A DNA stretch of 64,000 nucleotides from contig CAZREW010000015.1 of the NCBI GenBank assembly GCA_964599375.1, positions 10,028 through 74,027 on the forward strand, read 5' to 3'. Below the pieces are notes generated by a model, which was given only the letters and a program-made list of their open reading frames with translations, had not been told where the DNA came from and ran no database searches. Source of the stretch: an uncultured bacterium. Its GTDB lineage: Bacteria; Krumholzibacteriota; Krumholzibacteriia; Krumholzibacteriales; Krumholzibacteriaceae. Of this stretch, positions 11,201 to 62,964 are shown in pieces. Every line of letters begins with the position of its first letter. The stretch's first letter is position 1. The position numbers were made by a program, and so were the translations under genes.

Positions 11201-11221
11201 ATGTAATATCCCTTCCCTCTC

Positions 11222-46029: not shown

Positions 46030-46046
46030 CCCTGCTCCCTGCCGGA

Positions 46047-46481
46047 CTAGTATTCCCACTCGCCGTCGAGGAAAGTGTCGTCAGCTTCGTGGCTGACCTT
46101 CTCGTAGTCCTCGATCGACCAGATCTCGATATAGTTGAGGACCCCGACTACCATTACCTTCTTAGGCCCGCCCAGAGCCTCGAGCATCGCCGGAGGGATC
46201 GCGATCCTTCCCGACTTGTCGAGGTTGAGCGTCCGTGATTTGCTGCTGTAGAACCTGATGTAGTTCCTCTTCTTCGGGCCCGGAGGAAGCTTGTGCAGCT
46301 CGCTGACGACGACCTCGTTCCACTCGTTGAGCGGGTAGAGGTTGAGGCATCGCTCCTTGCCCATCGATATGACGTACATCGCGGCTGATACTTCCGGGAC
46401 AAGATGCCTGAACTTCGCGGGAACCATCAGGCGTCCCTTCGCGTCGATCGTGCATTCGAAATTTCCAAGGAAGTTCTGCAT
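46047..46481 (-). CDS. mraZ: Division/cell-wall cluster transcriptional repressor MraZ
   Basis: FLGNFECTIDAKGRLMVPAKFR, CLNLYP, LDKSGRIAIP and GVLNYIEIWS motifs (two SpoVT/AbrB repeats). Confidence 0.97.
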   Translation of the reverse strand: MQNFLGNFECTIDAKGRLMVPAKFRHLVPEVSAAMYVISMGKERCLNLYPLNEWNEVVVSELHKLPPGPKKRNYIRFYSSKSRTLNLDKSGRIAIPPAMLEALGGPKKVMVVGVLNYIEIWSIEDYEKVSHEADDTFLDGEWEY

Positions 46482-46621: not shown

Positions 46622-46789
46622 GGGAAAATATCGTAACATGCCCTTAATTCTCATATTTTACTGTGTTGTATAATAAAGAGTTAGCGGATACAGGAAAAAA
46701 AATCCACAGGGTTCCGTGTTTTCCCCGATCTACCACCGGTTCCCACCTGTCCAAAGGGCCCGGTCATCCTGAAATGGAAGGATCTGCCT

Positions 46790-47653
46790 TTAGCTGGCGT
46801 CGGCCGGCCGATCCGGGGGGATGCCCGGCCTGACAGCGGCGAGGACCAGGGTCGATGCGAGGAGCGAAATGGGAGGGGTCCTCTCCATGACGGCCTCAAG
46901 CCCCCTGGCCAGCGGGAAGACCGGATCCGGCAGGTTCTTCAGAACGAAGATGATCCTCTGCGAACCCGTTACCTCGAACCCCTCATCCTCGAGCATCGAC
47001 CTGATCTCCCCCTCAGGAGAGGGCCTGTGGTATCTGTACGGATGGTAGTCGGACCGCTCGATCTCACCTACGGGATAGCACATCCCGGGGAGCGCCCTCT
47101 TGAGGAACGGCAGCCTGTTGGCGACCCGCTTCCCTGTCTCGACGAACGAGTAGTAGTTTGGAGTGGAAAGGACGAGGGCGCCCCCCGGCTCGAGAACGCG
47201 CCACGCCTCACGGACAGCTGACCGGCGGTCGGGGTGAAAGACATGCTCGAATGTCTCAACCGCCGTGACCGCGGCAAAGGTACCGTCGCCGAAGGGAAGA
47301 GCGCTCATGTCGGCGCAGCTGAGCCTTGACTGCGTGCCGTTCGCAGCCGCGATCATCGATGCCGCCGCGAAATCGTTCTGCACAATGTCTATCCCGTACG
47401 GGGCGTAGCCGCGAAGCCCTAGAAGAAAGAGGTTGTATCCCCACCCGCAACCGACGTCGAGTGCCCGGCGCCCCATCCCGGCCGGGAGCATCCCGGTCAC
47501 CGCCACGAAGCGCCTGCGGCTGAGCCACCTCTTCGCCTTCGAGCCGAGAAACCAGTTCTCTAAAAGGCTCGGCATCCGATCCGCCTGTATCCCCACCGGG
47601 ATAACAGGCTCGGGAAGGTCTTTCATCTCCAGGCCGGGCCGATCCGTATTCAT
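46790..47653 (-). CDS. Class I SAM-dependent methyltransferase
   Basis: ALDVGCGWG, ADMSALPFGDGTF, ETFEHV and LEPGGALVLSTPN motifs; last gene of the glycan operon. Confidence 0.9.
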   Translation of the reverse strand: MNTDRPGLEMKDLPEPVIPVGIQADRMPSLLENWFLGSKAKRWLSRRRFVAVTGMLPAGMGRRALDVGCGWGYNLFLLGLRGYAPYGIDIVQNDFAAASMIAAANGTQSRLSCADMSALPFGDGTFAAVTAVETFEHVFHPDRRSAVREAWRVLEPGGALVLSTPNYYSFVETGKRVANRLPFLKRALPGMCYPVGEIERSDYHPYRYHRPSPEGEIRSMLEDEGFEVTGSQRIIFVLKNLPDPVFPLARGLEAVMERTPPISLLASTLVLAAVRPGIPPDRPADAS

Positions 47654-49179: not shown

Positions 49180-50468
49180 GCGTCCCTCCTCCTGCCGGCT
49201 ATCAGCTCGAGCTCGCGGGCCAGACTCTCGGCTGCGGCCCTTCTCGAAAACTCCGGTCTCGGCGACAGATCGTAGGCCGACTCGAGCGTCCCGTCCCTGT
49301 ACGCCGAATATATCCGCCTCAGCGCTGTCGCGACTTCGCCGGCGTCACCCGGCCCGGCGACCTCGCCCCTGCGCAGATTCCTGACAAGATCGGCCGCCTC
49401 CCCCGGCGGAGCCAGGGCAAGAACGGGCCTGCGGGCGCCTATGTACTCGTAGAGCTTGCCCGGAACGAGCCCGTTGTATCTCGGGTCGTCGTGCTTGATC
49501 AGCAGGAGCACGTGGCTCCTGCGCTCCCGTTCGATGCACTCGGTGTGCGGCATGTTATCCTCGAACACTACGCACTTCCCGATCCCGTCGAACCCCTCGA
49601 GATCCTCGTTCGCCGATTCCCTGGCCCCGATGAATTCGACCCTGATCCTTCCATTCGCCTCAGGCACCGCTGTGAGAAACCGCGAAAATCCTTCGAGAAA
49701 GACACGTGACCTGCGGCCAAGCGTCAGCATCCCGCAGTGCGTAATCAGCAGGGGGCCGCCGGGAGGCCGTTGCGGCTCCGAGGTGAAATCCTCCTCGTCG
49801 TACCCGTTCGGTATCCTCACGACATTGCATGAAGGGACGCTCCGCGACAATTCGTCCTGCTGCCACCTTGTAGTTACAACTATGGTATCAGCGCCGTGCT
49901 CGACCCGCCTTTCCATGCCCTCGAGGATAGACCTGTGAACTGCGGAGACCGGATCGCGGAGGTAGAGAGATATCCATGGATCCCTGAAATCGGCGAGCCA
50001 CGGCAACCCCGTCCTCCTGGCGACCTTCAGCGCGGCCAGATGAGTGGAGTCGGGCGGGCTTGTCGAGTAGAGAGCGTCGAACCTCTCATTGCGGCAGAGC
50101 CTGAGAGCCTCGCTTACGGCGAACGGCCTCCATCCCGTATAGGTGTCGGGCAGAAGGAATGATTCCCCGGCCCTTCTCATCAATTCGAAACCGCCGGAAG
50201 ACCTCGCGCCGGCCCGTCGGCCCCTCAGATTGCCGAGGATCCTCGACGCCGACAGTGAACCTGTCCTGATGACGCGGACGCCCGCCGGAATCTGCCTTTC
50301 CAGAGAAGGGTCGTTGATCCAGAACTCGCCGGGCTTCGGCGTGACCACGGTGATACCCCAGCCCGTCCTCGAGAGATACTTTACAAAAGAAAGCGGCCGG
50401 TACACCCCTCCCCCGCCTGCGGGCGGGAAGAAGTTGATCATCATCAGCAGCTTTCGAGAAGACATCAT
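49176..50468 (-). CDS. GT4-family glycosyltransferase
   Basis: FFPPAGGGGVYR, STSPP..HL, DFRDPW, IPNGYD and PGKLYEYIGARRPVL motifs. Confidence 0.88.
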   Translation of the reverse strand: MMSSRKLLMMINFFPPAGGGGVYRPLSFVKYLSRTGWGITVVTPKPGEFWINDPSLERQIPAGVRVIRTGSLSASRILGNLRGRRAGARSSGGFELMRRAGESFLLPDTYTGWRPFAVSEALRLCRNERFDALYSTSPPDSTHLAALKVARRTGLPWLADFRDPWISLYLRDPVSAVHRSILEGMERRVEHGADTIVVTTRWQQDELSRSVPSCNVVRIPNGYDEEDFTSEPQRPPGGPLLITHCGMLTLGRRSRVFLEGFSRFLTAVPEANGRIRVEFIGARESANEDLEGFDGIGKCVVFEDNMPHTECIERERRSHVLLLIKHDDPRYNGLVPGKLYEYIGARRPVLALAPPGEAADLVRNLRRGEVAGPGDAGEVATALRRIYSAYRDGTLESAYDLSPRPEFSRRAAAESLARELELIAGRRRDA

Positions 50469-52009
50469 CCCTCCAGTGATAGCACCCAGCGTACCAGCCC
50501 CGCGCCGGGACGGCCGGCTATCATCGCCGCCAGCGTCTCCGATTCACCGTGGTCGAGCAGGAACAGCTTCCTGACCGCCAGACGCAGAAGGAAGGGGGAC
50601 AGCAGGATGCATGCCGCGGCGGCGGAAACCCCCCAGGCAGCGCACGCTACTGCTCCGGCGACCGCGAATATCAGCGAGGCGCCGGCGGCCCTGAGCATGG
50701 CGGAACCGCCCGTGCCGGGAAAGAGCCCTTCCCTCCTGGCGAGCCATACGGCGACGGCGGCCTGGACGGCAGACGCTGTCAGCTGGGCAACTGCCGTGCC
50801 TGTCAGCCCGACATGCGGGACTATGATGAAGAGGCCGGAGAAGTAGACGGCCATCCAGGACAGGTCGCAAACCACCGCCCATTTCATGTAATGCAGCCCC
50901 TTCATGGCCGCGGTAAGGGGCGCTATGAAGGCGGCAACCGGCACCGTCGGCAGTAGCATGAGCAGAAGCCTGTACGTGCCATGGTATCCCGGACCGCTTA
51001 TCAGGCTGATCATCACCCCTCCGATGGCGGCTGCGACGGCCGATATCGCCAGGGCCGCCGTTACGCTCGCCTTTGTGAAAAGGCCGATTCGGCCGGAGAG
51101 GTCGTCCCACCTTCCCTCCTCATATATCCTGGTAAGCTCCGGCTGGAGCGCGACGACGGGGAATCCGAGGAATCTCTTTATCAGCTGGTTTATTCTCGAA
51201 GCGACGTGATACACAGATATCGCTGCGACGGGAAGCAGGGATGACATCATGAACCTGTCCACGTCAGAGAAAGCCAGCGCAGCATAGCTGAGCGCAAGCG
51301 CGCTTCCCCAGTAACCGGCCAGCGGAGGAAGGACCACGCCTCCCGAGGCGCCTGAACCGCCGTGAGAGAAATTCCATCTCATGATCAGAAGGTACGCGGG
51401 TATTCCCGCCACCCAGGTCAGGGCGTTGAGGACGAACATCGCCTTGAAAAGGACCTCCACATCGAGACGGTCACGCCAGATCAGGACAAAGGCCGTAAGG
51501 AGGACCTGGAAAGCGAGCTCGAATATCATCTGCATCCGCATCTCCCGGAGCCCGTTGAACCCGCCGTACAGGACGAGCTTGAGGCCGAGCGCAGCCGACG
51601 CCAGTATCATCCATTTCAGAGTTCCGCCCGGTACGGAGAGGCTTTTCGGCATAAGGCCCACCCAGTGTGGAGCGGAAAAAAGCAGGATAGCCCCGAGCAC
51701 GATCACGGCGGCTGAAAAGAGGAGGAACCAGGCGGCGGCGCTGCCGCGCTTCCCTCTCCTCTGGAATGAGGGAAGGTAACGGACAAGGACCTGTGGGAAT
51801 CCGACGATGATGACCGTGGTGAGCAGGAGAGCGAAGCCCCTCAGCGCGACATACAGGCCAAAGCGCTCCCCGCCGAGATGCCTGCTCAGCATGCTGAGCT
51901 GCACAAGCGTGAAGATCATCTGCAGAGCGCCGGCGACCGCGAGGGCGACCGTATTCTCCGCTATCCTCGACCGGCCTCTCTCTACCGTCTCTTCAGCCAC
52001 TCGATCCAT
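50465..52009 (-). CDS. Wzx-like oligosaccharide flippase (MOP family)
   Basis: About 13-14 TM; LSRHLGGERFGLY, DVDRFMMSSLL..ISVYHVA and LISGPGY patterns. Confidence 0.82.
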   Translation of the reverse strand: MDRVAEETVERGRSRIAENTVALAVAGALQMIFTLVQLSMLSRHLGGERFGLYVALRGFALLLTTVIIVGFPQVLVRYLPSFQRRGKRGSAAAWFLLFSAAVIVLGAILLFSAPHWVGLMPKSLSVPGGTLKWMILASAALGLKLVLYGGFNGLREMRMQMIFELAFQVLLTAFVLIWRDRLDVEVLFKAMFVLNALTWVAGIPAYLLIMRWNFSHGGSGASGGVVLPPLAGYWGSALALSYAALAFSDVDRFMMSSLLPVAAISVYHVASRINQLIKRFLGFPVVALQPELTRIYEEGRWDDLSGRIGLFTKASVTAALAISAVAAAIGGVMISLISGPGYHGTYRLLLMLLPTVPVAAFIAPLTAAMKGLHYMKWAVVCDLSWMAVYFSGLFIIVPHVGLTGTAVAQLTASAVQAAVAVWLARREGLFPGTGGSAMLRAAGASLIFAVAGAVACAAWGVSAAAACILLSPFLLRLAVRKLFLLDHGESETLAAMIAGRPGAGLVRWVLSLEG

Positions 52010-52950
52010 CTCCTCTTCTTCTCAAGGACAGGATAGAGATATTCCGTGCCGCCCATCGATTCCTTGAAGAAGATCATGCCTGCGTCCCCGCCACTGCTGC
52101 CCAGATTGAAGACGGAAGTGCCCCTGCCGATCGCCTCACGCACTGCGACCATTACGAGATAGGCCGCGGCGTCGTACTCGCTCGCCAGAGGAGCCACACC
52201 CGCCTGCCAGGCCTGGGCCGTCCTGCCGAAATAGAAATCAACGTGGGCGGCAAGCAGGGAGTCCCCGAGAAACGCTCCCCAGAAACATACACCCTCGCTA
52301 CCCCGGCGCAGCAGGCTCCTGAAGAATTCCATGGGGTACGGATGGACCCCTCCCCATCCTGTGGCTCCGTGGAGATATATATCGTAGAACAGCCCGAAAT
52401 CGTCCTCGCCCTCGAGCCTTCTGGCGATGATCCCCTCGCGTTCGCACCTGTTGCACAGCTGGCGCCTTTTACGGCTCATCCCCCTGCTCCTGTACTCCTC
52501 GAACGAACCGGGAAGCGTGATGATCCTGCACTCCTCCATCCTGCGTCTCCAGCCCCTGGGGTTCTCCCACTCTTCCACGAACCCTATCAGATTGGCGCCG
52601 GCGCGGGCGCATCTGGGAGAGGAAGCGATCTCGCAGAACCTGTCCAGGACCGCCCTTCGGACATCCGGATCGGAAGAGAGCGGATCGCCGTATGTGCCGA
52701 ATGGAAGCGAATGCAACATGAAGGCAGGGCCCTTGGTCACCCTGACCACAGGCATCAGGCCCTTCAGGCTACCGCCCCTGCGGGCGGCGAGCCAGCCACA
52801 CTCGAAACGCGGAAAGGCCTCCGCAAGTATCTCCAGCCATGTGGGGGAATGGAAGAATGTGGCGCCCTCGAAGGCCGAGACGAACTCGAGGACCTCCTCG
52901 CGGGAAAGATCAGTCTCGAAGCGGATCTCCACGGGCCCTCCGTTGATCAC
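51982..52950 (-). CDS. GNAT/FemAB-like acyltransferase
   Basis: TFFHSPTW, SLPFGTYG, SRKRRQ, PYP..FF and FNLGSSGG...FKESMGG motifs. Confidence 0.8.
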   Translation of the reverse strand: MINGGPVEIRFETDLSREEVLEFVSAFEGATFFHSPTWLEILAEAFPRFECGWLAARRGGSLKGLMPVVRVTKGPAFMLHSLPFGTYGDPLSSDPDVRRAVLDRFCEIASSPRCARAGANLIGFVEEWENPRGWRRRMEECRIITLPGSFEEYRSRGMSRKRRQLCNRCEREGIIARRLEGEDDFGLFYDIYLHGATGWGGVHPYPMEFFRSLLRRGSEGVCFWGAFLGDSLLAAHVDFYFGRTAQAWQAGVAPLASEYDAAAYLVMVAVREAIGRGTSVFNLGSSGGDAGMIFFKESMGGTEYLYPVLEKKRRWIEWLKRR

Positions 52951-54389
52951 GAGCTTCGTCCCGGGTCATCTCCGAAGCCGGGGATCAGCTCCGACATCAT
53001 CCGGAGAACGCCGTCCCTGTCCCCTTTCTCTGCCGCTTTGATGAGCCTGTCAACACCGGCCCCGAAATCTTTGCCCACAGCAGCGGGCGATCTGGCGAGC
53101 ATGATCTTTTCTCCGGAAACTGGCGGCTCCAGGATCTCGTCCTCTCCGATGAGGACTTCGTGGAGCTTCTCACCCTCCCTGAGCCCGGAAAATTCTATCG
53201 GTATCTCTTCATCCGGATCGTGCCCGGTAAGCATGATGATGTCCCTGGCCATCTCGAGGATGTTGAGCGCCTCGCCCATATCGAGTATGTACGTCTCCCC
53301 GCCTTTGCCGGACACCGATGCCTGTATCACGAGGAGCGTTGCCTCCCTGACCGTCATGAAGAACCTGGTGGCTCCGGGATGGCTGACAGTGACCGGCCCT
53401 CCCCTCGCGATCTGGTCCACGAAAAGCGGGACGACACTGCCTGTGCTGCCGATGACGTTTCCGAACCGGACGGTGATGAACCTGCAGGCGCTTTCCGGAT
53501 CGATCCCGCGCAGGTACATCTCGACCAGCCGCTTTGTGGCGCCCATCACTCCTTTGGGATCTGCCGCCTTGTCGGTCGATATGAACACAAACCGCTCAGC
53601 GCCGCATTTTTCGACCGCTTTCACGAGGTTTATGGTAGCCGCGACGTTGTTCAGCACGGCCTCTTCGGGATCACGTTCCATGTAGTGCACGTGCTTGTGC
53701 GCTGCGGTGTGATATACCACGTCCGGGGCAAGCCTCTTCATCAACTTCAGGAGCCTTTCGGGCTCGCGCAGATCGTTGATGACGGTGACTATCTCGAACC
53801 CAGGATTGTCGGCTCTTATCTCCTGCTCGATCGCGAAGATCCTGTTCTCGCCGCGGCCCAACATGATCAACGCCGCGGGCTTGACGCGGGCAAGCTGCCT
53901 GCACAGCTCGCTGCCGATCGTGCCGCCTGCTCCGGTGACAAGTATCCTCTTGCCTGCCAGGCTTCTGGCGGCCGATTCGAGATCGAAGCTTACCGTCTCC
54001 CTGCCGAGGAGATCCTCCACTCTCACTTCGCGGATCTGGTCGATGTGGACCGTCCCGCGGATGATCTCCATGAGGCCCGGCACGATCTTGTACTCAACAC
54101 CGGCCCTGCGGCACCGCCTGACGATGTCGCGTACAAACCTGCCCGGGGCGGTCGGAATCGATATGATGACCTCGTCTATGCCGCGATCCGCGACGACCGA
54201 TTCGAGCTCGGTCGTCCTGCCAAGCACGGGCGCGCCCTCGATCTCCGCCCCGGCCAGGGTCACGTCGTCATCGAGAAAACCCTCTATCGTCGCGTTGATC
54301 TCGGCAGAACAGCTGATCTCCGAGGCGATCATACGCGCGGCCTCGCCCGCGCCGACTATCAGTACCCTCCTGCACCTGTCACCGATCAC
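52947..54389 (-). CDS. CapD/PglF/WbpM-type UDP-HexNAc 4,6-dehydratase, without N-terminal TM region
   Basis: LIVGAGEA (CoA-binding-like domain), EDLLGR, TGAGGTIGSEL, AAHKHV, STDKA, MGATK, RFGNVIGS and TRFFMT motifs. Confidence 0.92.
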   Translation of the reverse strand: MIGDRCRRVLIVGAGEAARMIASEISCSAEINATIEGFLDDDVTLAGAEIEGAPVLGRTTELESVVADRGIDEVIISIPTAPGRFVRDIVRRCRRAGVEYKIVPGLMEIIRGTVHIDQIREVRVEDLLGRETVSFDLESAARSLAGKRILVTGAGGTIGSELCRQLARVKPAALIMLGRGENRIFAIEQEIRADNPGFEIVTVINDLREPERLLKLMKRLAPDVVYHTAAHKHVHYMERDPEEAVLNNVAATINLVKAVEKCGAERFVFISTDKAADPKGVMGATKRLVEMYLRGIDPESACRFITVRFGNVIGSTGSVVPLFVDQIARGGPVTVSHPGATRFFMTVREATLLVIQASVSGKGGETYILDMGEALNILEMARDIIMLTGHDPDEEIPIEFSGLREGEKLHEVLIGEDEILEPPVSGEKIMLARSPAAVGKDFGAGVDRLIKAAEKGDRDGVLRMMSELIPGFGDDPGRSS

Positions 54390-56716
54390 CTTACCACCGC
54401 GACCTTTCTCATGGACGTTCCCCCGGTTCCTTTCACGAATACTATGTAGATCCCCGAAGCGGCCTGATAACCGTTCATCGTCAGGAGGTCCCAGGCCACC
54501 TCGCCCTCGGCCACTCCTGCCACTTCATGGACCAGTTCGCCCTCCAGCGTGTAGACACGTATATCGACCAGGCCGCTTATCCGGGATATCCGCAGCTCGC
54601 TGTCCCCCCTGGCGGCATGGACTGGATTCGGGAAGAGGATCATCTCCGACATCGGCGTTATCACTTCCACCGGCTCGTTCGCGTCGAACCTGGCCAGCCC
54701 GTTATCCGTTCCGATCCACATGAATCCTCCCGCCGGATCGTAGACCAGCGCCCTGCAGATATGATCGGGAAGCGGGGATATGACGTCTTCAGCCTTGTAG
54801 ATCAGGTTGAGCTCGTTCTGCCACTCGAGTGCGGTGGTATACGCCTCGGCGATGTTCCCGTCCCCCTCGATCCTGTTCATGCCTCTGTTCGTGGCGACCC
54901 ACAGCCCGCCGCGCCCGTCGAACTCGATATCATATACCGTGCCTCCTATCAGGCCCTCGTCGCGGTCCCGGGTCTTTTCGGTAAATGAATGGATCGTTCC
55001 CTGAGAATACCTGACGAGCCCCGCCGAAGTCCCTGCCCATATGCTGCCGTCAGGTCCCCGCTCCACCGCCCACAGCTCCGTGCTGGGAAGCTGGCCGGAG
55101 CCTATGACGGTGATCCAGTAGTCGCCCGAGTTCGAGGTCAGGGTCGGCCAGTCGAAACCTCCCGTGTGCCAGTACATCACTCCGTAACCTCTGATGGCGA
55201 TATACGCCCCCTGGTCATCGAAGGCGCAGTCGAATATACTGCCGCCTTCCATCTGGGGATAGCTCTCAGGATCGACCGACAACCAGTCGTCCCCGGCCCT
55301 GCTGGCTATGTTGATCCCCCACATCCCGCTCTCGAATCCGACGTCGTCGGACATGAACCACCTGTTGCCGCCCGGATCCTCACGGGCTTTGACAAACCTG
55401 TCAGACGTTATCGTCCCGGTGCCGACCGCGAAATGCGCCCAGATATCATCGTCCTTGTCGAGCGGATCCCCGATCTCGATCCTGTCGAGATCGTAGTCCA
55501 GGGAGTTGCACCAGAGAAAACCCTGTGAATCATTCAGCAGGGCAAGGTTGTTTATAAAATAGGAAAGCGCGTCGTCGTTACCAACGTCGCTCCTTATCTT
55601 TGTGTAAGCCACCCACCGGTCGCCGGTAGAACGCAGCGAGATCCCGTACCTCCCCGTGCTCGCCCAGACATTCCCCGCCTGATCGCAGTCGAGGGCTACT
55701 ATCATGTTCTGGCTGAGTCCCTCGGGCCGGAAAGATGTCCACCCCACCCCGCTTGATCCGAAGAGGTAGATCCCCCTGGCGCCCTCCTCATAGAAACCGC
55801 CTGTCCACGGCGTTCCTCCGCCGTCGACCGCGAGAGCTCCGAGGATATTCTGGCTCCAGCCGATCCTGTACTCCTGAAGCTGCAGGTTCTTGAGCTCGAC
55901 GGCGGCCTGAAGGGCCCAGTAGGCGCCGTTCCACATGTATACCTGTTCAAGGGTCACACAGCACAGATTCCCTCCCCCTGAGGCGACAGCCACCGGGGCC
56001 ATGTGCAGGCCCCCGCCGAGCACCGGCCATGATCCGTCACCGAGGTGAAGGATATCGGGACCCGACACGCAGTAGACATCTCCTTCATGCACACAGACCG
56101 ACAAGACTTCTCCGACATCATAGAAGGTATATGCGAAGGTCTCGCGATCGTAACTCGCTATCCCTTTTTCGCAGGCTACCCACAAAAGACCGCTGGAAGG
56201 GTCCCAGGCGAGGTCGTACACAGTCCTTCCCTCCATGCTGTCGGTAAGGACAGGCTCTGTAGCCGGTGTATTCTCGTAGAACTTCGCCACTCCCCCGGTT
56301 CCGCCATAGTAGATATCGTCATCGACCGTCAGGAGGCACATCACGCTGTCGCTCAGTATGCCATCGAGCGTCTCGGTATATTCCTTCACGACGCGACCAC
56401 CGTCCGGGTCGTCTATCCGTGCTACACCGGCGACCCTCATCGCCGCCCATATGCTCCCTCTCCCGTCGACAGTCACAGCTGTGATATCGTTCGATCTGAG
56501 ATCGAGCCCGTCGAGGTATTTCGTAAAAGTCGAGTCCCGGAGGTCAAAGAGGAGGATCCCTCCCCTAGTCCCGCACCAGAGGCTGTCTCCCAGAGCCGTG
56601 ACCCTGTTGATCGCGCTGGCATCCATATATACGTTCCAGTCTCCCGGCGCCCCGTCGGCACTCGCGCCGGCACAGACGATCAGCGCCGCGAACAGGATAA
56701 ATCTGATCGTTTTCAA
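54386..56716 (-). CDS. PorZ-like secreted beta-propeller protein with T9SS type-A C-terminal domain
   Basis: Signal peptide; many propeller blades (AVTVDGRGSIW, DIEFDGRGGLWVAT, WIGTDNGLARF); C-terminal FPNP...RVYTLEGELV...WD...ASGIY...KVAVVR. TTG start at 56716 overlaps the upstream stop; 776 aa. Confidence 0.75.
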   Translation of the reverse strand: MKTIRFILFAALIVCAGASADGAPGDWNVYMDASAINRVTALGDSLWCGTRGGILLFDLRDSTFTKYLDGLDLRSNDITAVTVDGRGSIWAAMRVAGVARIDDPDGGRVVKEYTETLDGILSDSVMCLLTVDDDIYYGGTGGVAKFYENTPATEPVLTDSMEGRTVYDLAWDPSSGLLWVACEKGIASYDRETFAYTFYDVGEVLSVCVHEGDVYCVSGPDILHLGDGSWPVLGGGLHMAPVAVASGGGNLCCVTLEQVYMWNGAYWALQAAVELKNLQLQEYRIGWSQNILGALAVDGGGTPWTGGFYEEGARGIYLFGSSGVGWTSFRPEGLSQNMIVALDCDQAGNVWASTGRYGISLRSTGDRWVAYTKIRSDVGNDDALSYFINNLALLNDSQGFLWCNSLDYDLDRIEIGDPLDKDDDIWAHFAVGTGTITSDRFVKAREDPGGNRWFMSDDVGFESGMWGINIASRAGDDWLSVDPESYPQMEGGSIFDCAFDDQGAYIAIRGYGVMYWHTGGFDWPTLTSNSGDYWITVIGSGQLPSTELWAVERGPDGSIWAGTSAGLVRYSQGTIHSFTEKTRDRDEGLIGGTVYDIEFDGRGGLWVATNRGMNRIEGDGNIAEAYTTALEWQNELNLIYKAEDVISPLPDHICRALVYDPAGGFMWIGTDNGLARFDANEPVEVITPMSEMILFPNPVHAARGDSELRISRISGLVDIRVYTLEGELVHEVAGVAEGEVAWDLLTMNGYQAASGIYIVFVKGTGGTSMRKVAVVR

Positions 56717-58773
56717 CGGCCGACCCCCTTGCTGTAAAACCATTCCGGATATCTGCCGGCCAGACAGGGGATGACCGACCGGACCATGAGCAGGATTCTT
56801 CCCGCAAAAGTCTGATTGTTCAACATCAATATTTCGTCTTCCACCGCTTCGGACGGTCCGGCGGCCGGCCGGAGGCGCCACTCGCCCGATACGCCCGGCC
56901 TTAAAACGGATCTTCCCCCGGGGATCTCCACGGGCAGGGCGGGGGGTCCGATAAGAGAGAGCCGGCCCGTCAAGAGATGAAGCGCGAGCAGCGGCTTGAC
57001 CGCATCAGACGCCTCGCGTCCGGACCTTAGAACCGCTCTCGGCCAGCGCAGGTCACTGCGCGCCCCCCTCCTCTTCTCAGTGAAGATCCTGACCCCTCCG
57101 AAGGTCCTGCCAATCGCCGCGAAGGGGAGCCAGCATAAGGCGCAGACGGGGAGGAGGAGCAGGCCTGCCGCAAGATCTATCAGCCTCTGCATCCAGCGGG
57201 TCAGGAGGAAAGACGTCCCTCTTTCAATGGTGAACATGTAAACGCCGCCAAGATTCTCCGAGCGTGTGTCGCGTCCCGTGACCCTGGCCGCGGGAGATAT
57301 GATGTTTATCCTTATCGACCTCGATACAGGGCCTGTCATTATCTTCACTATCCCGTCGTCCTTTGCCGCAGACGGCAGAATAACCATTTCCTGGACCCTG
57401 AACCTGTCTACGATCGATTGAAGGTCCTCCGGACCGCCGAGCGACCCTTCGCCCGCGCCGACCCTCCCGATTATATCGATGCCGGCCTCAGGGTGCTCCA
57501 GGGCGTTGGCCGCGAAATCGGCCGCTTCCTCCGCGTCCCCAGCGAGAAGCACCCTGCGCAGATCGAAACTAGCCATGACGAGGGCCCTGTGGGACCGCCG
57601 TATCAGCCTCCTCAGAGCCGTCACGAGGACGGCGGAAAAGACCGCGTGCCCGAGGATGACCGCGCGGGAGAAGATCCTCACCTTGGTCAGGTAAGACGCG
57701 GTCAGGAGCACTGCGAAGACTATGAGCACCGCTCTTGCGACGGCGGAGAACTCCTCGGCTGCTCCCGTGCCCCTTCGTATCCTGTAAAGCCCCGTCGAGG
57801 CAAAAGTCAGCAGGAAAAGGAAATTGTACAGTATTATGAATATCGAGTACCAGTCGAGCGGGTACAGGCGGTTCACGAACATCGGCTGAAGTGAGTTCCG
57901 CAGAAAGTACGCAGCGATGAAGCTCGCGTTGACCGCAATAAGGTCGCTCGCGACGAAGGCGAGCGATTTTATCGTCCCCCTGTTCCGCCTCAGGAAATGG
58001 AACACCGTGTTCCATTTCTCGTAATACCTCATCAGGCTGAGCATGTGCAGGAGAAACGGCCTGCTCAACACCGACTTCGCGCTGGAGCGCTCGTACAGGT
58101 GGACCATCACGGAGCCGGGATCGTACCAGACTTCCCAGCCGTGCTGCTTCATCCTGTAGCACCAGTCGGTATCCTCGAAGTACAGGAAGAACCTCTCGTC
58201 CATCAGCCCGACCTCGGCGACCGCATCACGGCGGACGATCATGCAGGCTCCTATGACCCAGTCGACCTGCCTCGCCTCGGCATGGTCGTAATCGCGCATC
58301 AGGTGCTGCCGCAGCGCCTTCGCCCGGGGAAAGATCCTGCCCAGGAACGTACGCCTGAGAAAGAGGGCCGTGATCGTATAGAACGACCTGCAGGATGGCT
58401 GAAGGGAGCCGTCAGGGAATACGAGCTTCGAGCCGGCGATTCCCGCGCCCGGCCTGTCGTCCATGAAACGCACCAGGGCGTCTATCGAGTCCTCATCGAC
58501 GATGATGTCAGGGTTCAGGATCAGGAAGTACCTTCCCGAAGAGGCGAGGAAAGCCTGGTTCACGCCCTTTGAATATCCCCTGTTGTCGTCGTTCGCGATC
58601 AGCCTTACCGACGGGAACGATCCGCGGATCATCTCGGGGGTCCCGTCGCCGCTCGCGTTGTCGACCACCAGGACTTCGTACTCGCAGCCCGGAGGATACT
58701 GCTCGAGGGAACGGAGGCATTTCCCCACCGGGGAAAGGCTGTTATGGGTGACGATGACAATAGATAGATCCAT
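56713..58773 (-). CDS. GT2 glycosyltransferase fused to 4 TM, a CoA-binding-like domain and a degenerate WcaJ-type phosphoglycosyltransferase domain
   Basis: N-terminal VVDNAS, LNPD, DWVIGACM and FLYFEDTDWC motifs. C-terminal QRLIDL...GRLSLIGP...RPGVSG lacks KFRSM and DELPQ. Confidence 0.8.
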   Translation of the reverse strand: MDLSIVIVTHNSLSPVGKCLRSLEQYPPGCEYEVLVVDNASGDGTPEMIRGSFPSVRLIANDDNRGYSKGVNQAFLASSGRYFLILNPDIIVDEDSIDALVRFMDDRPGAGIAGSKLVFPDGSLQPSCRSFYTITALFLRRTFLGRIFPRAKALRQHLMRDYDHAEARQVDWVIGACMIVRRDAVAEVGLMDERFFLYFEDTDWCYRMKQHGWEVWYDPGSVMVHLYERSSAKSVLSRPFLLHMLSLMRYYEKWNTVFHFLRRNRGTIKSLAFVASDLIAVNASFIAAYFLRNSLQPMFVNRLYPLDWYSIFIILYNFLFLLTFASTGLYRIRRGTGAAEEFSAVARAVLIVFAVLLTASYLTKVRIFSRAVILGHAVFSAVLVTALRRLIRRSHRALVMASFDLRRVLLAGDAEEAADFAANALEHPEAGIDIIGRVGAGEGSLGGPEDLQSIVDRFRVQEMVILPSAAKDDGIVKIMTGPVSRSIRINIISPAARVTGRDTRSENLGGVYMFTIERGTSFLLTRWMQRLIDLAAGLLLLPVCALCWLPFAAIGRTFGGVRIFTEKRRGARSDLRWPRAVLRSGREASDAVKPLLALHLLTGRLSLIGPPALPVEIPGGRSVLRPGVSGEWRLRPAAGPSEAVEDEILMLNNQTFAGRILLMVRSVIPCLAGRYPEWFYSKGVGR

Positions 58774-58791: not shown

Positions 58792-59508
58792 TTATTTCCA
58801 TCGCCTGGGATTCATGAACCTCAGTCTCCAGACCATGAACATCGCTTCCCAGATGATCTTGCGCGACATCTTCGAGATGCCTACCCGCCTGTCGGTAAAG
58901 ATGATCGGTATCTCGACCATACGGAATCCCTTTTTCCAGGCGAAGAAATTCATCTCTATCTGGAACGAGTATCCGTCGCTCCTGATCGTATCGAGGGGCA
59001 GCTTTTCGAGTGTCCCGCGTCTGAAACACTTGAAGCCCCCCGTAGAGTCCTTCAGGGGAAGGCCGGTGATGATATGCGTATAGACGTTCGCCCCGTAACT
59101 GAGTATCAACCTGCTGAGAGGCCAGTTGATCACCGTTATTCCGTGAAGATACCTCGAGCCGATCACGAGGTCCCGGTCCTTCGCCGCTTCGAGAAATTCA
59201 GGGATCGCGCCCGGGTCGTGGGAGAAATCGGCGTCCATCTCGAAGATGAACTGCGCGTCGGTATTTGCCAGAGCCCATTTGAATCCAGCTATATAAGCGG
59301 ATCCCAGCCCCAGCTTTCCTTCACGGTGGATCACGTGCACTCGCGGCTCTGATCCGGCGAGCCTGTCGACGATCTCCCCTGTGCCGTCTGGAGAATTATC
59401 ATCGACGATCAGGACCTCGATACCTTCGCCCTGCGCAAGGACGGCATCGATGATATTCTCGATATTTTCCTTCTCGTTGTATGTAGGTACGACTATCAGG
59501 GCTTTCAA
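58792..59508 (-). CDS. Polyprenol-monophosphomannose synthase (Dpm1/Ppm1-like GT2)
   Basis: VPTYNEKENI, VDDNSPDGT, GLGSAY, MDADFSHDP, GSRY, DSTGGFKCFR, GYSFQIEM and FTDRRVGISKMS motifs. Confidence 0.92.
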   Translation of the reverse strand: MKALIVVPTYNEKENIENIIDAVLAQGEGIEVLIVDDNSPDGTGEIVDRLAGSEPRVHVIHREGKLGLGSAYIAGFKWALANTDAQFIFEMDADFSHDPGAIPEFLEAAKDRDLVIGSRYLHGITVINWPLSRLILSYGANVYTHIITGLPLKDSTGGFKCFRRGTLEKLPLDTIRSDGYSFQIEMNFFAWKKGFRMVEIPIIFTDRRVGISKMSRKIIWEAMFMVWRLRFMNPRRWK

Positions 59509-59512
59509 ATCT

Positions 59513-61981
59513 CTATGCCTTTCTTACAGCGGATAATGAGGCGATCACAGCCAGCGCGGCGGCGAAGACCAGTGAGGTGATCGACAGGACAAGAGACTTC
59601 CTGATCACCGGGGACCTGTATTCGAACGTTATCTCATGGTCCCCCGCCTCGAGAGGTATGGCCCTGAGGCAGTAGTTCGCCGTCAGGATCTCCCTCTCCT
59701 CCTTTCCGACAGTGGCGATCCAGTCCGGATAGTAGATCTCGCTGAGCACCATGATGCACGGTCTCTCCACATGAGCCTTTATCCCTATCGAGTTCAACCT
59801 GAATGAGACGATCTCGGCCGAGCTTCCCTCGGCCGACACCGGGACGATCCGCGGCTCCTTCTCGAGCAGCGTCACCGAGGCCGGATCGAAATCCTGCCTG
59901 CTCATCTCGGCCAGGGCCTCACTGTGCCCCATGACCCTGAAACCGCCCGTCATGTATACTCTCGGAAGCGCGTAGGGATTCTCGTAGACGTAGCTGTTTT
60001 CCGCCTGGAAGACCAGGGGGAACGGCGAATCCTCCCTGAAGAGTGGGAACATCGAATGGAAATATCTCGCGTTGAGCATGTCGAGCACGGGAAGCGGCAT
60101 GCCCCCGCCGTTGAAGACGCCGAACATGGCGTCCATCACGTCCTGGTAGTTCTTCAGCTTGGCCGCGTGGTACCCGCCCAGGGAAAACACGCCCGCCATC
60201 ATGTAGCTGTTGTCGCTGAAGGGGAAGACGTTGTGGCTCCACCCGCCCGGCCTCGCGGCTGGAACGGGAAATACCCTGAAGTAACCCTCCCTGCCGGAGA
60301 GCCACTCGATCGTCTCGGTCGGCCTGGTCAGTCCTTCCTTCTCTGAAAGAGGCTTGATAAGCCTGTAGCTGGAGGACCGCCACGTCTTCTCCGGCCTGAC
60401 GACCGACTGGTCGACAGTCATCAGGTCCGCAATACCGATCAGGGCCACCGCCCCGATGATGAGCCCGGACTTTGTCCTGCCGCGCGCCGCGAGGAATATC
60501 GCACCGACGGTCATCAGAAGGAAGGTGAATGTCCGGGCAAGGTCGCTCGCGTACCTGCCGGCGGCGAACGTTGCCCAGTCGCCCTTCACCCTCGCCCTGA
60601 CCGCCGCGTCCGCCGAGATGCCCGAGCGTATCGAGCCGCCGGCCGCGAGGACGATCAACAGAGCGGCGGCACAGGCTACCAGGACCCACCTGACTCTGCT
60701 GGGCCCGAGATATCCCGGAAGGGAGCCGTTCTCCGCCCTGCGCAGCAGCTCCTCGATGCCCATGGCCGCCAGTACGACCATCGTGAGCTGCTGGACGATC
60801 AGGACCATCACCGGCACGCGGAACTTGTCGAACCAGGGCATGAACCTGAACATGGGGCCGTAAAGCAGAGGGAAATGCCTTCCGAAGCTTATCAGCACGG
60901 CAAGCACCGCCGCCGTCAGCAGGAACCATTTCGCGCGACCTTTCACGATCAGCGCCCCTATGAGCGCGAAAAGAGCGGTCACCTGCCCGATATAGTTTGG
61001 ATAATCGGTGAACGGCATGCTTCCCCAGTATGTCGCCTTGCCGAACCCGAACGACCACGGGAACAGGAAGGTGATGATCTCCTTCGGGGCCAGGCTCCAC
61101 CCGGTGGCGTAATCATAGTCGAGCCCCCCGCCGCTTCCACCGCGGATCGACCAGTGGGCGTAGTCGCGCACCGGGAATACGAGCACGGCGGCTATCCCGA
61201 CGGCCAGTACGAAGGAGGCCGCAAGCAGGGCAGTCCCCGCGGCCGCTTCCCGTCCCCTGCCCTCCCTGAGATTCCCTGCTGTCTCGAAGACGTAATAAAG
61301 ACCGATCAGAAGGAAGGTATAATAGGAGATCTGTATGTGCCCTCGGAGCATCTGCATGCCTAGGACTATGGCGAGAAGCGCTACCGAGCTGATCCTGTCC
61401 CTGCCGCCGAGCACCCTTCTGGCGAAGAGGAGGGCCAGGGGCATCCATGCGACAGCCCCCGCCTGGGACCCGTGGCCGTTGGCGCCGGCCGCAATATAAT
61501 TGGGCATTATCATGAACAGCGCGCCCGCCATCAGGGAGATAGAAGGGCGGACGCCGAAAGACCTGGCCAGCAGATACATACCGACCCCGGCCAGGAGGTA
61601 GTGAAGCAGGAGCCAGGTCATCGCGGGGAACCCGGCGTACGTATAGAGCAGGTGCGTCAGGAAGGCTACGGGGTAGACGTACGGCGTGTAGGCAAGGCTC
61701 GAGAAACTCGGCATGCCGCAGAATATATAAGGGTTCCAGAGTGGGTAGGTCCCCTCCTCGAGGCTCGCCCTGCCGACCGTCCTGAAGCTCATCGGGGCCT
61801 TCGTGTCGGGGGCGATGAAGACGTCGTCGAGAAAGACCAGCTCGGGCACGAGGATAGCCAGCACGGCCACGAGGATCACGGCCGCCGCGATACCCCTTTT
61901 CCACCCCTTCATGGAATCGAAGCCGCCGACGGGATCGAACGCTCTACGGACCGGCCCGGCCGGCTTGCTCTTTCCAGCCAA
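59513..61981 (-). CDS. YfhO-family GT-C membrane protein
   Basis: PLWNPYIFCGMP, many TMs, RVP; C-terminal LSEIYYPDWIATV...ANYCLRAIPLEAGDHEITFEY domain. Confidence 0.85.
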   Translation of the reverse strand: MAGKSKPAGPVRRAFDPVGGFDSMKGWKRGIAAAVILVAVLAILVPELVFLDDVFIAPDTKAPMSFRTVGRASLEEGTYPLWNPYIFCGMPSFSSLAYTPYVYPVAFLTHLLYTYAGFPAMTWLLLHYLLAGVGMYLLARSFGVRPSISLMAGALFMIMPNYIAAGANGHGSQAGAVAWMPLALLFARRVLGGRDRISSVALLAIVLGMQMLRGHIQISYYTFLLIGLYYVFETAGNLREGRGREAAAGTALLAASFVLAVGIAAVLVFPVRDYAHWSIRGGSGGGLDYDYATGWSLAPKEIITFLFPWSFGFGKATYWGSMPFTDYPNYIGQVTALFALIGALIVKGRAKWFLLTAAVLAVLISFGRHFPLLYGPMFRFMPWFDKFRVPVMVLIVQQLTMVVLAAMGIEELLRRAENGSLPGYLGPSRVRWVLVACAAALLIVLAAGGSIRSGISADAAVRARVKGDWATFAAGRYASDLARTFTFLLMTVGAIFLAARGRTKSGLIIGAVALIGIADLMTVDQSVVRPEKTWRSSSYRLIKPLSEKEGLTRPTETIEWLSGREGYFRVFPVPAARPGGWSHNVFPFSDNSYMMAGVFSLGGYHAAKLKNYQDVMDAMFGVFNGGGMPLPVLDMLNARYFHSMFPLFREDSPFPLVFQAENSYVYENPYALPRVYMTGGFRVMGHSEALAEMSRQDFDPASVTLLEKEPRIVPVSAEGSSAEIVSFRLNSIGIKAHVERPCIMVLSEIYYPDWIATVGKEEREILTANYCLRAIPLEAGDHEITFEYRSPVIRKSLVLSITSLVFAAALAVIASLSAVRKA

Positions 61982-62054: not shown

Positions 62055-62963
62055 TCAAAATCCGCTCTCCCGCTCATCCTTCCGCGCCCCGAGAACCCTG
62101 GCCGCCCCCCTCATCGCCGCGGCGAGGAGCCTCCATCTCCCGGTCAGAAGAAGCCCCAGCGCCAGCCCCAGGAATCCCACCGCGTGGACCGGCAGCAGGA
62201 TGACCCTCCACCACAGCGGCCTGTGCCTGACCAGCAGCTTCCACGTGCTCGCTATCCTGTTTTCCAGCTTGAAGGGAGTCATCCCGCCTCCGCTGCTGGA
62301 ACTGACTTTGTGCCATACCTTTGCGGCCGGAACATACTTCAGCGTCCAGCCCGCTTCAGCCGCCCTGAGACAGAGATCGACGTCCTCGCAATAGATCCTG
62401 TACGAGGGATCAAGGCCCCCCGTCTGCTCGAAGACCTCCCGCCTGGCCATCAGCGCGCATCCTGTCACCCAGCCTGTCGGCCCCGGCTTCTCTTCGAACG
62501 AACCCTCGATCCTGCGCAGGCCGCGGTGAAAGGGCACGCCCGTGAGCCAGTTAAACCCGCCTCCGCCGTACCAGATCCTCTCCGGATCGTCGTAATAGAA
62601 TATCTTCGGACCAGCTATCCCGGTCCGCGGGTCATCGAAGGCTCCGAGCATCTCTGCCACGAACCGGGGATCGACCTCAGTATCGTTGTTCAGCAGGAGG
62701 ATGAACTCAGCGCCCCTCTCGAGGGCAGCCCTAATGCCGACGTTGTTCCCGGCGGCGAAGAGGAGGTTCCTGCCGTTCTCTATAAGCTCGACTCCCTTAA
62801 ACTCACGCCGGACCGTCTCAGGCGAGGAATCTGTAGAACCGTTATCGACTACTATTATCTCTAAGGCGGGCTCGCTGACGCGCGAGAGGGATTCGAGGCA
62901 GGGCTTGAGCACCGCTTCGCCGTTCCAGTTGAGTATGATGACGAATATCCTTCCAGGGTCCAT
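62055..62963 (-). CDS. GT2 glycosyltransferase (WbbL/RfbF-like)
   Basis: ILNWNG, VDNGSTD, LLLNND, WVTGCALM, YCEDVDLC and KVWHKVS motifs. Start set at MDPGR (62963). Confidence 0.9.
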   Translation of the reverse strand: MDPGRIFVIILNWNGEAVLKPCLESLSRVSEPALEIIVVDNGSTDSSPETVRREFKGVELIENGRNLLFAAGNNVGIRAALERGAEFILLLNNDTEVDPRFVAEMLGAFDDPRTGIAGPKIFYYDDPERIWYGGGGFNWLTGVPFHRGLRRIEGSFEEKPGPTGWVTGCALMARREVFEQTGGLDPSYRIYCEDVDLCLRAAEAGWTLKYVPAAKVWHKVSSSSGGGMTPFKLENRIASTWKLLVRHRPLWWRVILLPVHAVGFLGLALGLLLTGRWRLLAAAMRGAARVLGARKDERESGF

Positions 62964-62964
62964 C

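What the first reader, a model, noticed from the sequence alone, without database searches (positions are those of the whole stretch)
54386..56716. PorZ-like T9SS protein embedded in a glycan biosynthesis operon
The protein has a signal peptide, repeated propeller blades and a type-A T9SS CTD, and is 776 aa, about the size I recall for PorZ. In Porphyromonas, PorZ binds A-LPS and hands it to the PorU sortase that anchors T9SS cargo (established). Here the gene overlaps sugar-pathway genes on both sides (TTGA and GTGA junctions). This suggests the operon makes the glycan anchor for a T9SS-like surface-attachment system in a non-Bacteroidota lineage, and would genetically identify that anchor's biosynthesis genes.
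Basis: partly seen in the sequence, partly recalled or inferred. Interest (0 to 1): 0.7.

Follow-up and report, generated by a model that had tools for sequence, protein, structure and literature searches.

The report
PorZ-like surface propeller in glycan operon
A secreted double-propeller protein that looks like PorZ, the glycan carrier of the Bacteroidota type IX secretion system, is built into a sugar-polymer gene cluster next to the cell-division genes across the uncultured phylum Krumholzibacteriota and related lineages, which ties it to that glycan, although I could not show that these bacteria have the rest of the secretion machinery.

Summary
Window 54386-56716 (-) encodes a 776-aa protein with a signal peptide, two Reg_prop beta-propellers and a C-terminal T9SS type-A sorting domain. 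Its start and stop overlap the neighbouring genes (TTGA, GTGA).

- **Organism:** Krumholzibacteriota, from a salt marsh.
- **Fold:** a confident AlphaFold model (pLDDT 88) matches the PorZ crystal structure 5M11 best (TM 0.58-0.60), ahead of sensor-kinase propellers (TM 0.25-0.35).
- **Profile comparison:** the family aligns end to end with PorZ (E 2e-33). It aligns equally well with sensor propellers over the propellers only.
- **Curated models:** it fails both PorZ models (NCBIfam 94 bits against a cut-off of 260; no Pfam PF21544 hit). It is a PorZ-like relative, not a canonical PorZ.
- **Synteny (the strongest result):** in eight loci of three groups, down to 25% identity, the gene sits in the same place. 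It lies between a GT2/phosphoglycosyltransferase-like fusion and a CapD-type dehydratase or FemAB-like transferase, in a cluster ending at mraZ. Two canonical PorZ genes sit beside recO with no glycan genes.
- **Unresolved:** the window holds no T9SS core genes, and two motif scans were uninformative.

Verdict: a glycan-coupled PorZ-like protein is well supported; the T9SS anchor role is plausible but unproven.

The parts
54386..56716 (-). PorZ-like protein, 776 aa, TTG start, TGA stop at 54386-54388
   Evidence: ORF. Start supported by orthologue N-termini and junction sequence. Reg_prop and TIGR04183 hits. AlphaFold model with PorZ 5M11 as top structural hit.
56657..56716 (-). Signal peptide, residues 1-20, predicted cleavage after A-S-A
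   Evidence: Read from the sequence. Low-pLDDT N-terminal helix 2-14. This is the least conserved segment of the family.
55853..56644 (-). N-terminal beta-propeller, about residues 25-288; begins with the invariant W27 strand that aligns with PorZ W31
   Evidence: DSSP strand pattern of the model. hhalign to the PorZ alignment starts at residue 2. Invariant columns.
54662..55852 (-). C-terminal beta-propeller, about residues 289-685, carrying the best Reg_prop repeats
   Evidence: Reg_prop best stretch 588-611. Strand pattern. Matches to 4a2l/3v9f and to PorZ 531-758.
54389..54652 (-). T9SS type-A C-terminal sorting domain, residues 689-776 (LFPNPV...SGIYIV...RKVAVVR)
   Evidence: TIGR04183 above cut-off. 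Most conserved segment of the family. 5014 CTD-like matches in the representative library.
56713..58773 (-). Upstream gene, 686 aa: GT2 + CoA_binding_3 + divergent polyprenyl-phosphate glycosylphosphotransferase-like C-terminus. Its stop overlaps the target's start.
   Evidence: Pfam and NCBIfam. Orthologues carry Bac_transf hits. Degenerate motifs.
58792..59508 (-). GT2, 238 aa, polyprenyl-phosphate sugar synthase-like (PpgS/AglJ/DPM-like). Most conserved gene of the cluster.
59513..61981 (-). YfhO-like polytopic membrane protein, 822 aa, putative GT-C glycosyltransferase
   Evidence: Weak Pfam YfhO hit. Orthologues in all loci.
62055..62999 (-). GT2 glycosyltransferase, 314 aa
62965..63906 (-). 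GT4 glycosyltransferase. The ORF caller gives 313 aa; the same gene is called at 389 aa on a short contig of the same organism.
52947..54389 (-). Downstream gene, 480 aa: CapD/PseB-like UDP-sugar 4,6-dehydratase (Polysacc_synt_2). Its GTG start overlaps the target's stop.
51982..52950 (-). FemAB-like / Acetyltransf_6 N-acyl (possibly aminoacyl) transferase, 322 aa
   Evidence: Present next to or near the target in L001-L003, L006, L204, L205.
50465..52009 (-). Wzx-type flippase (Polysacc_synt), 514 aa
49176..50468 (-). GT4 glycosyltransferase, 430 aa
47650..49179 (-). PMT_2-like polytopic membrane protein, 509 aa, putative GT-C
   Evidence: Orthologues.
46790..47653 (-). SAM-dependent methyltransferase, 287 aa, last gene of the cluster
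   Evidence: A terminator-like hairpin at 46718-46705 follows it (consensus match only).
46047..46481 (-). mraZ, first gene of the division/cell-wall (dcw) cluster that borders the glycan cluster in every locus
   Evidence: ORF. MraZ Pfam hits in orthologous loci.

Best explanation
The gene encodes a cell-surface glycan-binding protein of the PorZ type.

Shown:
- It has a Sec signal peptide, two beta-propellers and a T9SS type-A C-terminal sorting domain.
- It is homologous along its full length to PorZ.
- It has stayed at one position in one glycan-synthesis cluster across three diverged groups.

Inferred mechanism:
1. After Sec export, the C-terminal domain directs it across the outer membrane through a T9SS-type route.
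2. As in PorZ, the C-terminal domain is kept and holds the protein on the surface.
3. The propellers bind the glycan, probably a lipid-linked one, that the surrounding operon makes and flips outward.
4. The protein presents that glycan to a surface attachment step. The most likely such step is a PorU-like transpeptidase that anchors other CTD-bearing proteins.

The operon would then be the anchor-glycan pathway of this lineage.
For: Architecture and homology:
- Reg_prop repeats plus TIGR04183.
- AlphaFold pLDDT 88.3, pTM 0.80.
- Foldseek top hit is PorZ 5M11: E 7e-32, TM 0.58/0.60, full length. Sensor propellers reach only TM 0.25-0.35.
- hhalign of the family against a PorZ alignment: probability 99.9, E 2e-33, 710 columns, residues 2-773 against 1-766. 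This includes the N-terminal Trp strand and the CTD.

Glycan binding as the likely activity: both characterised relatives bind glycans. PorZ binds A-LPS (PMC12398890). The BT4663-type sensor domain is a heparin/heparan sulphate sensor (PDB title).

Coupling to the operon:
- Same position in L001-L004, L006, L204 and L205 at 25-53% identity, while mraW in the same loci is 42-60% identical.
- Start or stop overlaps, or short gaps, in several loci.
- Two canonical PorZ loci have no glycan genes.

A retained, functional CTD is suggested because it is the most conserved segment (73% against 61-66%). PorZ and PorU keep their CTDs.

The P. gingivalis anchor needs WbaP, Wzx, an aminotransferase, the VimA acyl/aminoacyl transferase and glycosyltransferases (PMC7468200). 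The same enzyme classes are here.

Many other proteins of varied size carry closely similar CTDs in the representative library, so a cargo set may exist. Their organisms are mostly unknown.
Against: - The family fails the curated PorZ equivalog model: 94 bits against a cut-off of 260, where true PorZ scores 491-661. A sensor kinase scores 112 on the same model.
- It has no Pfam PorZ_N_b_propeller hit.
- Sequence profiles rank sensor-kinase propellers at or above PorZ.
- No T9SS core gene lies in the 64-kb window.
- Motif scans for canonical PorV and GldM found none attributable to this lineage, although their sensitivity was low.
- No PorU was among the 7 long CTD proteins I scanned.
- No paper links Krumholzibacteriota with T9SS.
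- The cluster's three GT-C-like enzymes and its polyprenyl-phosphate sugar synthase fit protein or polymer decoration as well as an anchor glycolipid.
- No WaaL-type ligase was seen.
Confidence: 0.4

Rival explanations
1. A surface lectin or assembly factor for the operon's own polysaccharide, with no sortase hand-off. The protein is ordinary T9SS cargo or a surface protein. It binds the exported glycan and organises or retains it on the outer membrane, much as Wzi retains K30 capsule.
For: The same synteny and glycan-binding relatives as in the main explanation. No PorU or PorV was detected. Sub-threshold on PorZ models. A Wzi-like outer-membrane protein elsewhere in the window shows the organism handles surface polysaccharide.
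Against: The global fold and domain order match PorZ better than any other solved protein. The unusually conserved CTD fits a retained, interacting domain better than a cleaved signal. Neither point excludes this reading.
Confidence: 0.3
2. The protein is the acceptor, not the binder. It would be a major surface glycoprotein that the cluster's GT-C enzymes (YfhO-like, PMT_2-like, TMEM260-like with TPR) glycosylate in the periplasm, using polyprenyl-phosphate sugars made by the 238-aa GT2.
For: Three GT-C-like membrane proteins and a polyprenyl-phosphate sugar synthase are conserved with it. The YfhO-like gene and the 238-aa GT2 sit just upstream of the GT2 fusion that directly precedes the target, in every locus that covers that side. 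From established knowledge, PMT and TMEM260 enzymes are protein O-mannosyltransferases.
Against: Nothing in the sequence marks it as a substrate. Propellers of this class are known as ligand binders. The cluster also has a Wzx flippase and a full set of cytoplasmic glycosyltransferases, which is typical of a lipid-linked oligosaccharide or polymer.
Confidence: 0.15
3. A stand-alone extracytoplasmic sensor domain derived from hybrid two-component sensors. It would report glycan status to a separate transducer.
For: The best sequence-level PDB matches are BT4663, BT3049 and BT4673 sensor domains. hhalign E 8e-34 over both propellers. JGI names the family 'ligand-binding sensor domain-containing protein'.
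Against: There is no Y_Y_Y domain, transmembrane segment, kinase or receiver. The protein ends in a secretion/sorting domain. TM-scores to the sensors are only 0.25-0.35. No regulator is conserved beside it.
Confidence: 0.05

Closest known systems
PorZ (PG1604/PGN_0509) of Porphyromonas gingivalis, T9SS attachment-complex component; PDB 5M11; NCBIfam NF052228; Pfam PF21544
   Same: Signal peptide, two beta-propellers and a type-A-like CTD. Same length, 776 aa. Best structural match. Collinear profile alignment over 710 columns. The conserved Trp strand directly after the signal peptide.
   Different: About 16-18% identity. Fails both curated PorZ models. Its blades are Reg_prop-type, as in sensor kinases. 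It lies inside a glycan cluster, whereas the two canonical porZ genes examined sit beside recO. Partners PorU, PorV and PorQ were not shown in this lineage.
Periplasmic sensor domains of Bacteroides hybrid two-component systems (BT4663, BT3049, BT4673; PDB 4A2L/4A2M, 3V9F, 3OTT/3VA6)
   Same: Double propeller built of Reg_prop repeats. Strongest sequence-level similarity. Glycan-binding function (PDB title).
   Different: The sensors continue into Y_Y_Y, a transmembrane segment, kinase and receiver domains. This protein ends in a T9SS CTD. The relative orientation of the propellers differs (TM 0.25-0.35).
Wbp/Vim anchor (A-LPS linking sugar) pathway of P. gingivalis
   Same: Enzyme classes: a WbaP-type initiating transferase, a Wzx flippase (PorS), a DegT aminotransferase (PorR; present in L004, L006 and L204), an N-acyl/aminoacyl transferase (VimA-like role for the FemAB-like protein) and glycosyltransferases.
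   Different: Orthology was not tested because I had no VimA, PorS or PorR sequences to compare. In P. gingivalis these genes are scattered and not linked to porZ. The window itself lacks the aminotransferase. The cluster adds GT-C enzymes absent from the described pathway.
CsbB/YfhO-type two-step extracytoplasmic glycosylation (Firmicutes teichoic acid glycosylation)
   Same: A small GT2 polyprenyl-phosphate sugar synthase sits directly next to a large YfhO-like membrane protein.
   Different: The Pfam YfhO hit is weak: 26.8 bits, below the 28.5 cut-off, and covers the C-terminus only. The organism is presumably Gram-negative, since the window encodes a lipid A acyltransferase-like protein and a Wzi-like outer-membrane protein. 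The acceptor is unknown.

Membership tests
PorZ (T9SS A-LPS delivery protein) | Architecture: Sec signal peptide, two beta-propellers, C-terminal T9SS CTD, about 740-800 aa | tested here: met
   The protein is 776 aa, the same as P. gingivalis PorZ.
PorZ (T9SS A-LPS delivery protein) | Score above the curated NCBIfam NF052228 equivalog cut-off (260 bits) | tested here: not met
   93.7 bits. Orthologues score 91-95 and more distant relatives 40-103. True PorZ scores 491-661. A sensor kinase reaches 112.
PorZ (T9SS A-LPS delivery protein) | Pfam PF21544 PorZ N-terminal beta-propeller | tested here: not met
   No hit at E <= 10. Canonical PorZ proteins carry it.
PorZ (T9SS A-LPS delivery protein) | Three-dimensional similarity to the PorZ crystal structure, including the arrangement of the three domains | tested here: met
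   5M11 is the top hit of 350,542 chains: E 7e-32, TM 0.58/0.60, rmsd 8.4 A. The match is moderate but clearly better than to sensor propellers.
PorZ (T9SS A-LPS delivery protein) | Genome also encodes the attachment-complex partners PorU, PorV and PorQ and the SprA/PorKLMN core | tested here: inconclusive
   None in the window. Codon-biased motif scans for PorV and GldM found only Bacteroidota-type genes but had low sensitivity.
PorZ (T9SS A-LPS delivery protein) | Binds the anchor glycan and presents it to PorU; CTD retained | not testable with these tools
   Only indirect evidence: the CTD is the most conserved segment, and the gene is fixed inside a glycan cluster.
T9SS type-A CTD proteins | C-terminal domain matching TIGR04183 / PF18962 at the extreme C-terminus | tested here: met
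   TIGR04183 scores 25.9-30.6 bits against a cut-off of 23. Pfam PF18962 is below its cut-off (19 against 27), but is recorded for many orthologues.
T9SS type-A CTD proteins | Secretion depends on a T9SS translocon in the same organism | tested here: inconclusive
   Same evidence as the PorU/PorV/SprA row above. A review states that CTD proteins are limited to the FCB superphylum (PMC12398890). NCBI taxonomy places Krumholzibacteriota directly under Bacteria. Its FCB affiliation is my recollection.
Hybrid two-component sensor (HTCS) periplasmic domain | Double Reg_prop propeller | tested here: met
Hybrid two-component sensor (HTCS) periplasmic domain | Followed by Y_Y_Y (PF07495), a transmembrane helix and histidine kinase/receiver domains | tested here: not met
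   None of these domains is present; the protein ends in a CTD.

The most novel reading that the evidence does not exclude
Krumholzibacteriota and at least two sister groups may have a divergent T9SS-type surface-attachment system. In it, the PorZ equivalent is genetically hard-wired to the pathway that builds the anchor glycan, beside the cell-division genes. The cluster would then name the anchor's biosynthetic genes outright: the GT2/PGT-like fusion, CapD-like dehydratase, FemAB-like transferase, Wzx flippase and the GT-C enzymes. It would also show that PorZ evolved from, or alongside, Reg_prop glycan-sensor propellers.
Probability: 0.3. Interest if true: 0.75.

Novelty: new variant of a known kind. 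Interest (0 to 1): 0.55.

Why it matters
In Bacteroidota the genes for PorZ, the sortase PorU and the anchor glycan are scattered. Finding the anchor pathway there took years of genetics.

Here a PorZ-like gene has been kept inside one glycan cluster across deep divergence. That gives a direct, testable guess at which glycan it handles.

If a T9SS is present in these bacteria, this would be the first genetic handle on cargo anchoring outside Bacteroidota. It would also link PorZ to the carbohydrate-sensor propellers.

If no T9SS is present, a conserved type-A sorting domain in a lineage without the machinery would itself need explaining.

Either way the cluster lies next to mraZ in every locus seen. 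That marks it as a probable core envelope function of an uncultured phylum.

Tried and rejected
- **CTD-profile word search:** meant to find other cargo and PorU. It returned only fragments of the same family.
- **Seven long CTD proteins scanned for PorU:** none was PorU.
- **Genome-contig scan:** a codon-biased PorV motif, PDAR(AGG)xxxMG[DG]. It gave 74 hits: about 40 Bacteroidota PorV genes, the rest chance. The one Gemmatimonadales hit was a trehalose-phosphate enzyme. No hit came from Krumholzibacteriota.
- **Metagenome-contig scan:** a GldM motif, PRQKMI..MYLV. It gave 120 or more canonical GldM genes, none with window-like codon use.
- **Why both scans are inconclusive:** I later found that the AGG-rich arginine usage I relied on is confined to the window and L001 lineages. 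I therefore treat both scans as inconclusive, not negative.
- **Extending the window's own contig:** found only a 5-kb contig.
- **Literature searches linking Krumholzibacteriota or other FCB phyla with T9SS:** empty.
- **Broad-profile search for the taxa of the distant relatives:** swamped by sensor kinases. Cluster look-ups gave no organism names.
- **PDB sequence searches for the FemAB-like, YfhO-like and PMT_2-like proteins:** nothing found.
- **Rejected reading:** chance insertion of an unrelated gene, because the position is conserved in eight loci down to 25% identity.

Full report
**What is there.** The minus strand of the window carries an ORF at 54386..56881. The 776-aa reading from TTG 56716 is the right one. 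Orthologues begin 'MK' at that position. The TTG overlaps the upstream gene's TGA as TTGA, and a purine-rich AAGGGGG lies about 7-13 bases upstream.

The N-terminus, MKTIRFILFAALIVCAGASA|DG, reads as a Sec signal peptide without a canonical lipobox. Pfam finds five Reg_prop repeats (E 1e-13). NCBIfam's T9SS type-A sorting domain TIGR04183 is above its cut-off at residues 694-774, although Pfam's PF18962 is below its own. The stop overlaps the GTG start of the next gene as GTGA.

**Organism and habitat.** A tight family of about 770-aa proteins at 45-80% identity is named 'T9SS type A sorting domain-containing protein' from Candidatus Krumholzibacteria/-ota by NCBI. The window sequence occurs in salt-marsh metagenomes. 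The rest of the window is ordinary chromosome: groEL, uvrB, valS, recG and the ftsZ-to-mraZ division cluster.

**Is it PorZ-like?** An AlphaFold2 model built on 46 family members is confident (pLDDT 88.3, pTM 0.80). It shows two beta-propellers followed by a beta-sandwich.
- Against 350,542 PDB chains the best hit is the PorZ crystal structure 5M11 (E 7e-32, TM 0.58/0.60, full length).
- The Bacteroides sensor domains 4A2L/4A2M, 3V9F and 3OTT/3VA6 follow at E 1e-26 to 1e-22, but with TM only 0.25-0.35. The blades match but the domain arrangement does not.

I took real PorZ sequences from the supplement of PMC7323717 and aligned them with three database proteins that score 491-661 bits on the NCBIfam PorZ model. 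The family profile aligns with this PorZ profile from residue 2 to 773 (probability 99.9, E 2e-33, 710 columns). The alignment includes the Trp-containing first strand and the CTD.

The same family profile aligns equally strongly with sensor-kinase propellers (E 8e-34), but only over residues 46-674. Plain sequence and profile searches of the PDB rank the sensors above PorZ.

The family fails both curated PorZ definitions. It scores 94 bits on NF052228 against a cut-off of 260, and a sensor kinase scores 112 on the same model, so this sub-threshold score carries no information. It has no PF21544 hit.

The fair statement is this. It has PorZ's architecture and overall shape and is a remote full-length homologue, but it is not a canonical PorZ. 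Its blades are of the sensor (Reg_prop) type.

**Gene neighbourhood.** This is the strongest result. Orthologues at 45-53% identity lie in the same cluster (L001-L003). So does a fragment-bearing contig (L006). So does a second group of 771-836-aa proteins at about 30% identity (L004/L005, L204). So does a third group of 736-748-aa proteins at 25% identity, from a locus of 72% G+C (L205).

The shared order is:
- TMEM260-like GT-C with TPR
- epimerase
- GT2, GT4, GT2
- YfhO-like membrane protein
- 238-aa GT2
- GT2 + CoA_binding_3 + phosphoglycosyltransferase-like fusion
- this gene
- CapD-like dehydratase (with a DegT aminotransferase in some loci)
- FemAB-like transferase
- Wzx flippase
- GT4
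- PMT_2-like membrane protein
- methyltransferase
- then mraZ, mraW, ftsL, ftsI

tblastn confirms orthology gene by gene. The target diverges somewhat faster than mraW (25-53% against 42-60%). Junctions are overlaps or short gaps. All three groups keep a CTD-like tail.

By contrast, two canonical PorZ genes (PF21544) sit beside recO among housekeeping genes. The coupling of a PorZ-like gene to a glycan cluster is therefore real, old and specific to this family.

**What the cluster makes.** NCBIfam hits are all sub-threshold and generic: a PseB/FnlA-like 4,6-dehydratase, a WbaP/EPS-type sugar transferase, a FemAB family protein and a polyprenyl-phosphate sugar synthase.

The phosphoglycosyltransferase-like end of the fusion protein looks degenerate in all orthologues. 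The Asp is kept, but the neighbouring Glu and the KFRTM-type motif are not. This judgement rests on motifs I recall, not on a test.

There are three GT-C-like membrane proteins. The 238-aa GT2 next to the YfhO-like protein is the most conserved gene of the cluster. This mix fits a lipid-linked glycan that is flipped and then further built or transferred outside the cytoplasm.

The enzyme classes overlap with those needed for the P. gingivalis cargo anchor: WbaP, Wzx/PorS, WbpE/PorR, the VimA acyl/aminoacyl transferase and glycosyltransferases (PMC7468200). Such classes are common in glycan clusters, and I could not test orthology.

**The T9SS question.** The window has no T9SS core gene, and only the family itself carries a CTD in the loci I hold. 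A CTD profile finds 5014 matches in the representative library, including many proteins of other sizes. Their organisms are mostly unknown, and none of the seven I scanned is PorU.

I scanned the genome collection for a codon-biased PorV motif and the metagenome collection for a GldM motif. Both returned only Bacteroidota-type genes. Afterwards I found that the AGG-rich arginine usage on which I based the patterns is confined to the window's own sub-lineage. The scans are therefore uninformative rather than negative.

No paper connects this phylum with T9SS. One describes flagellar motility in a Krumholzibacteriota genome. A review states that CTD proteins and the T9SS are confined to the FCB superphylum. 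NCBI does not place the phylum there, and its FCB affinity is my recollection.

**Mechanism.** I commit to the following, with steps marked.
- Shown: a secreted double propeller with a type-A sorting domain, homologous to PorZ, fixed inside a glycan pathway.
- Inferred from both characterised relatives being glycan binders: the propellers bind the operon's glycan.
- Inferred from the CTD being the most conserved segment and from PorZ and PorU keeping theirs: the CTD is retained and tethers the protein at the surface.
- Least certain: it hands the glycan to a PorU-like sortase that anchors other CTD proteins.

I give the whole chain about 0.4. The rivals, all compatible with the data, are a plain surface lectin or assembly factor for the polysaccharide (0.3), the protein being the glycosylation substrate (0.15), and an orphan sensor (0.05).

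**Novelty.** Databases already label the protein a T9SS sorting-domain protein or a ligand-binding sensor domain protein. What is new is three things together: the recognition of a PorZ-type fold, a family spanning three diverged groups, and its invariant placement in a glycan/GT-C cluster abutting the division genes. That makes it a new variant of a known kind. It is of moderate to good interest, with a clear computational test (T9SS HMMs on the complete genomes) that I could not run here.

Noticed in passing
window, 19 genes between 147 and 61981: AGG supplies 47% of arginine codons in a 61% G+C genome. The bias is shared by locus L001 but not by other relatives' loci (L002-L006).
   Followed up: partly
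window 56713-58773 (-): The 686-aa GT2 + CoA_binding_3 + phosphoglycosyltransferase-like fusion has a C-terminal domain whose catalytic-type motifs look degenerate in the window and in all five orthologues aligned. No other initiating transferase is visible in the cluster.
   Followed up: partly
window 58792-59508 and 59513-61981 (-); 47650-49179 (-); L001-L004 and L204 first gene: A small polyprenyl-phosphate sugar synthase-like GT2 sits next to a YfhO-like membrane protein, with a PMT_2-like and (in relatives) a TMEM260-like/TPR protein also present. That makes three putative GT-C enzymes in one cluster, which suggests extracytoplasmic glycosylation of a protein or polymer.
   Followed up: partly
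window 45628-46718: The glycan cluster ends at a terminator-like hairpin (46718-46705). A promoter-like site (46621-46592) precedes mraZ (46047-46481), which is followed by a small STAS-like ORF (45628-46059) before mraW. The same border with mraZ is seen in every related locus.
   Followed up: partly
L205 8133-10343; proteins P0306, P0279, P0298: A third, very G+C-rich group (72%) of 736-748-aa propeller proteins with CTD-like tails sits in the same neighbourhood, with 4-base overlaps on both sides. Its taxon is unknown.
   Followed up: partly
L202 8001-10241; L203 8001-10298: Canonical PorZ genes (Pfam PF21544) lie immediately upstream of recO in two unrelated metagenomic contigs.
   Followed up: no
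window 10379-13791 (-): A Wzi-like outer-membrane protein (12052-13791) sits next to a UbiA-family prenyltransferase (11222-12052) and the BacA/UppP undecaprenyl-pyrophosphate phosphatase (10379-11200).
   Followed up: no
window 15796-17079 (-): A 427-aa protein with a weak Arf/Ras-like small-GTPase domain. Its function is unknown.
   Followed up: no
window 18254-21542 (+): A short plus-strand island in an otherwise minus-strand window: a lipid A acyltransferase-like gene, a GT4 and an MFS transporter.
   Followed up: no
protein P0263: A 1434-aa protein on a 1.03-Mb contig carries both Reg_prop and PorZ_N_b_propeller Pfam domains. It may be an intermediate or a fusion between the two propeller types.
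   Followed up: no
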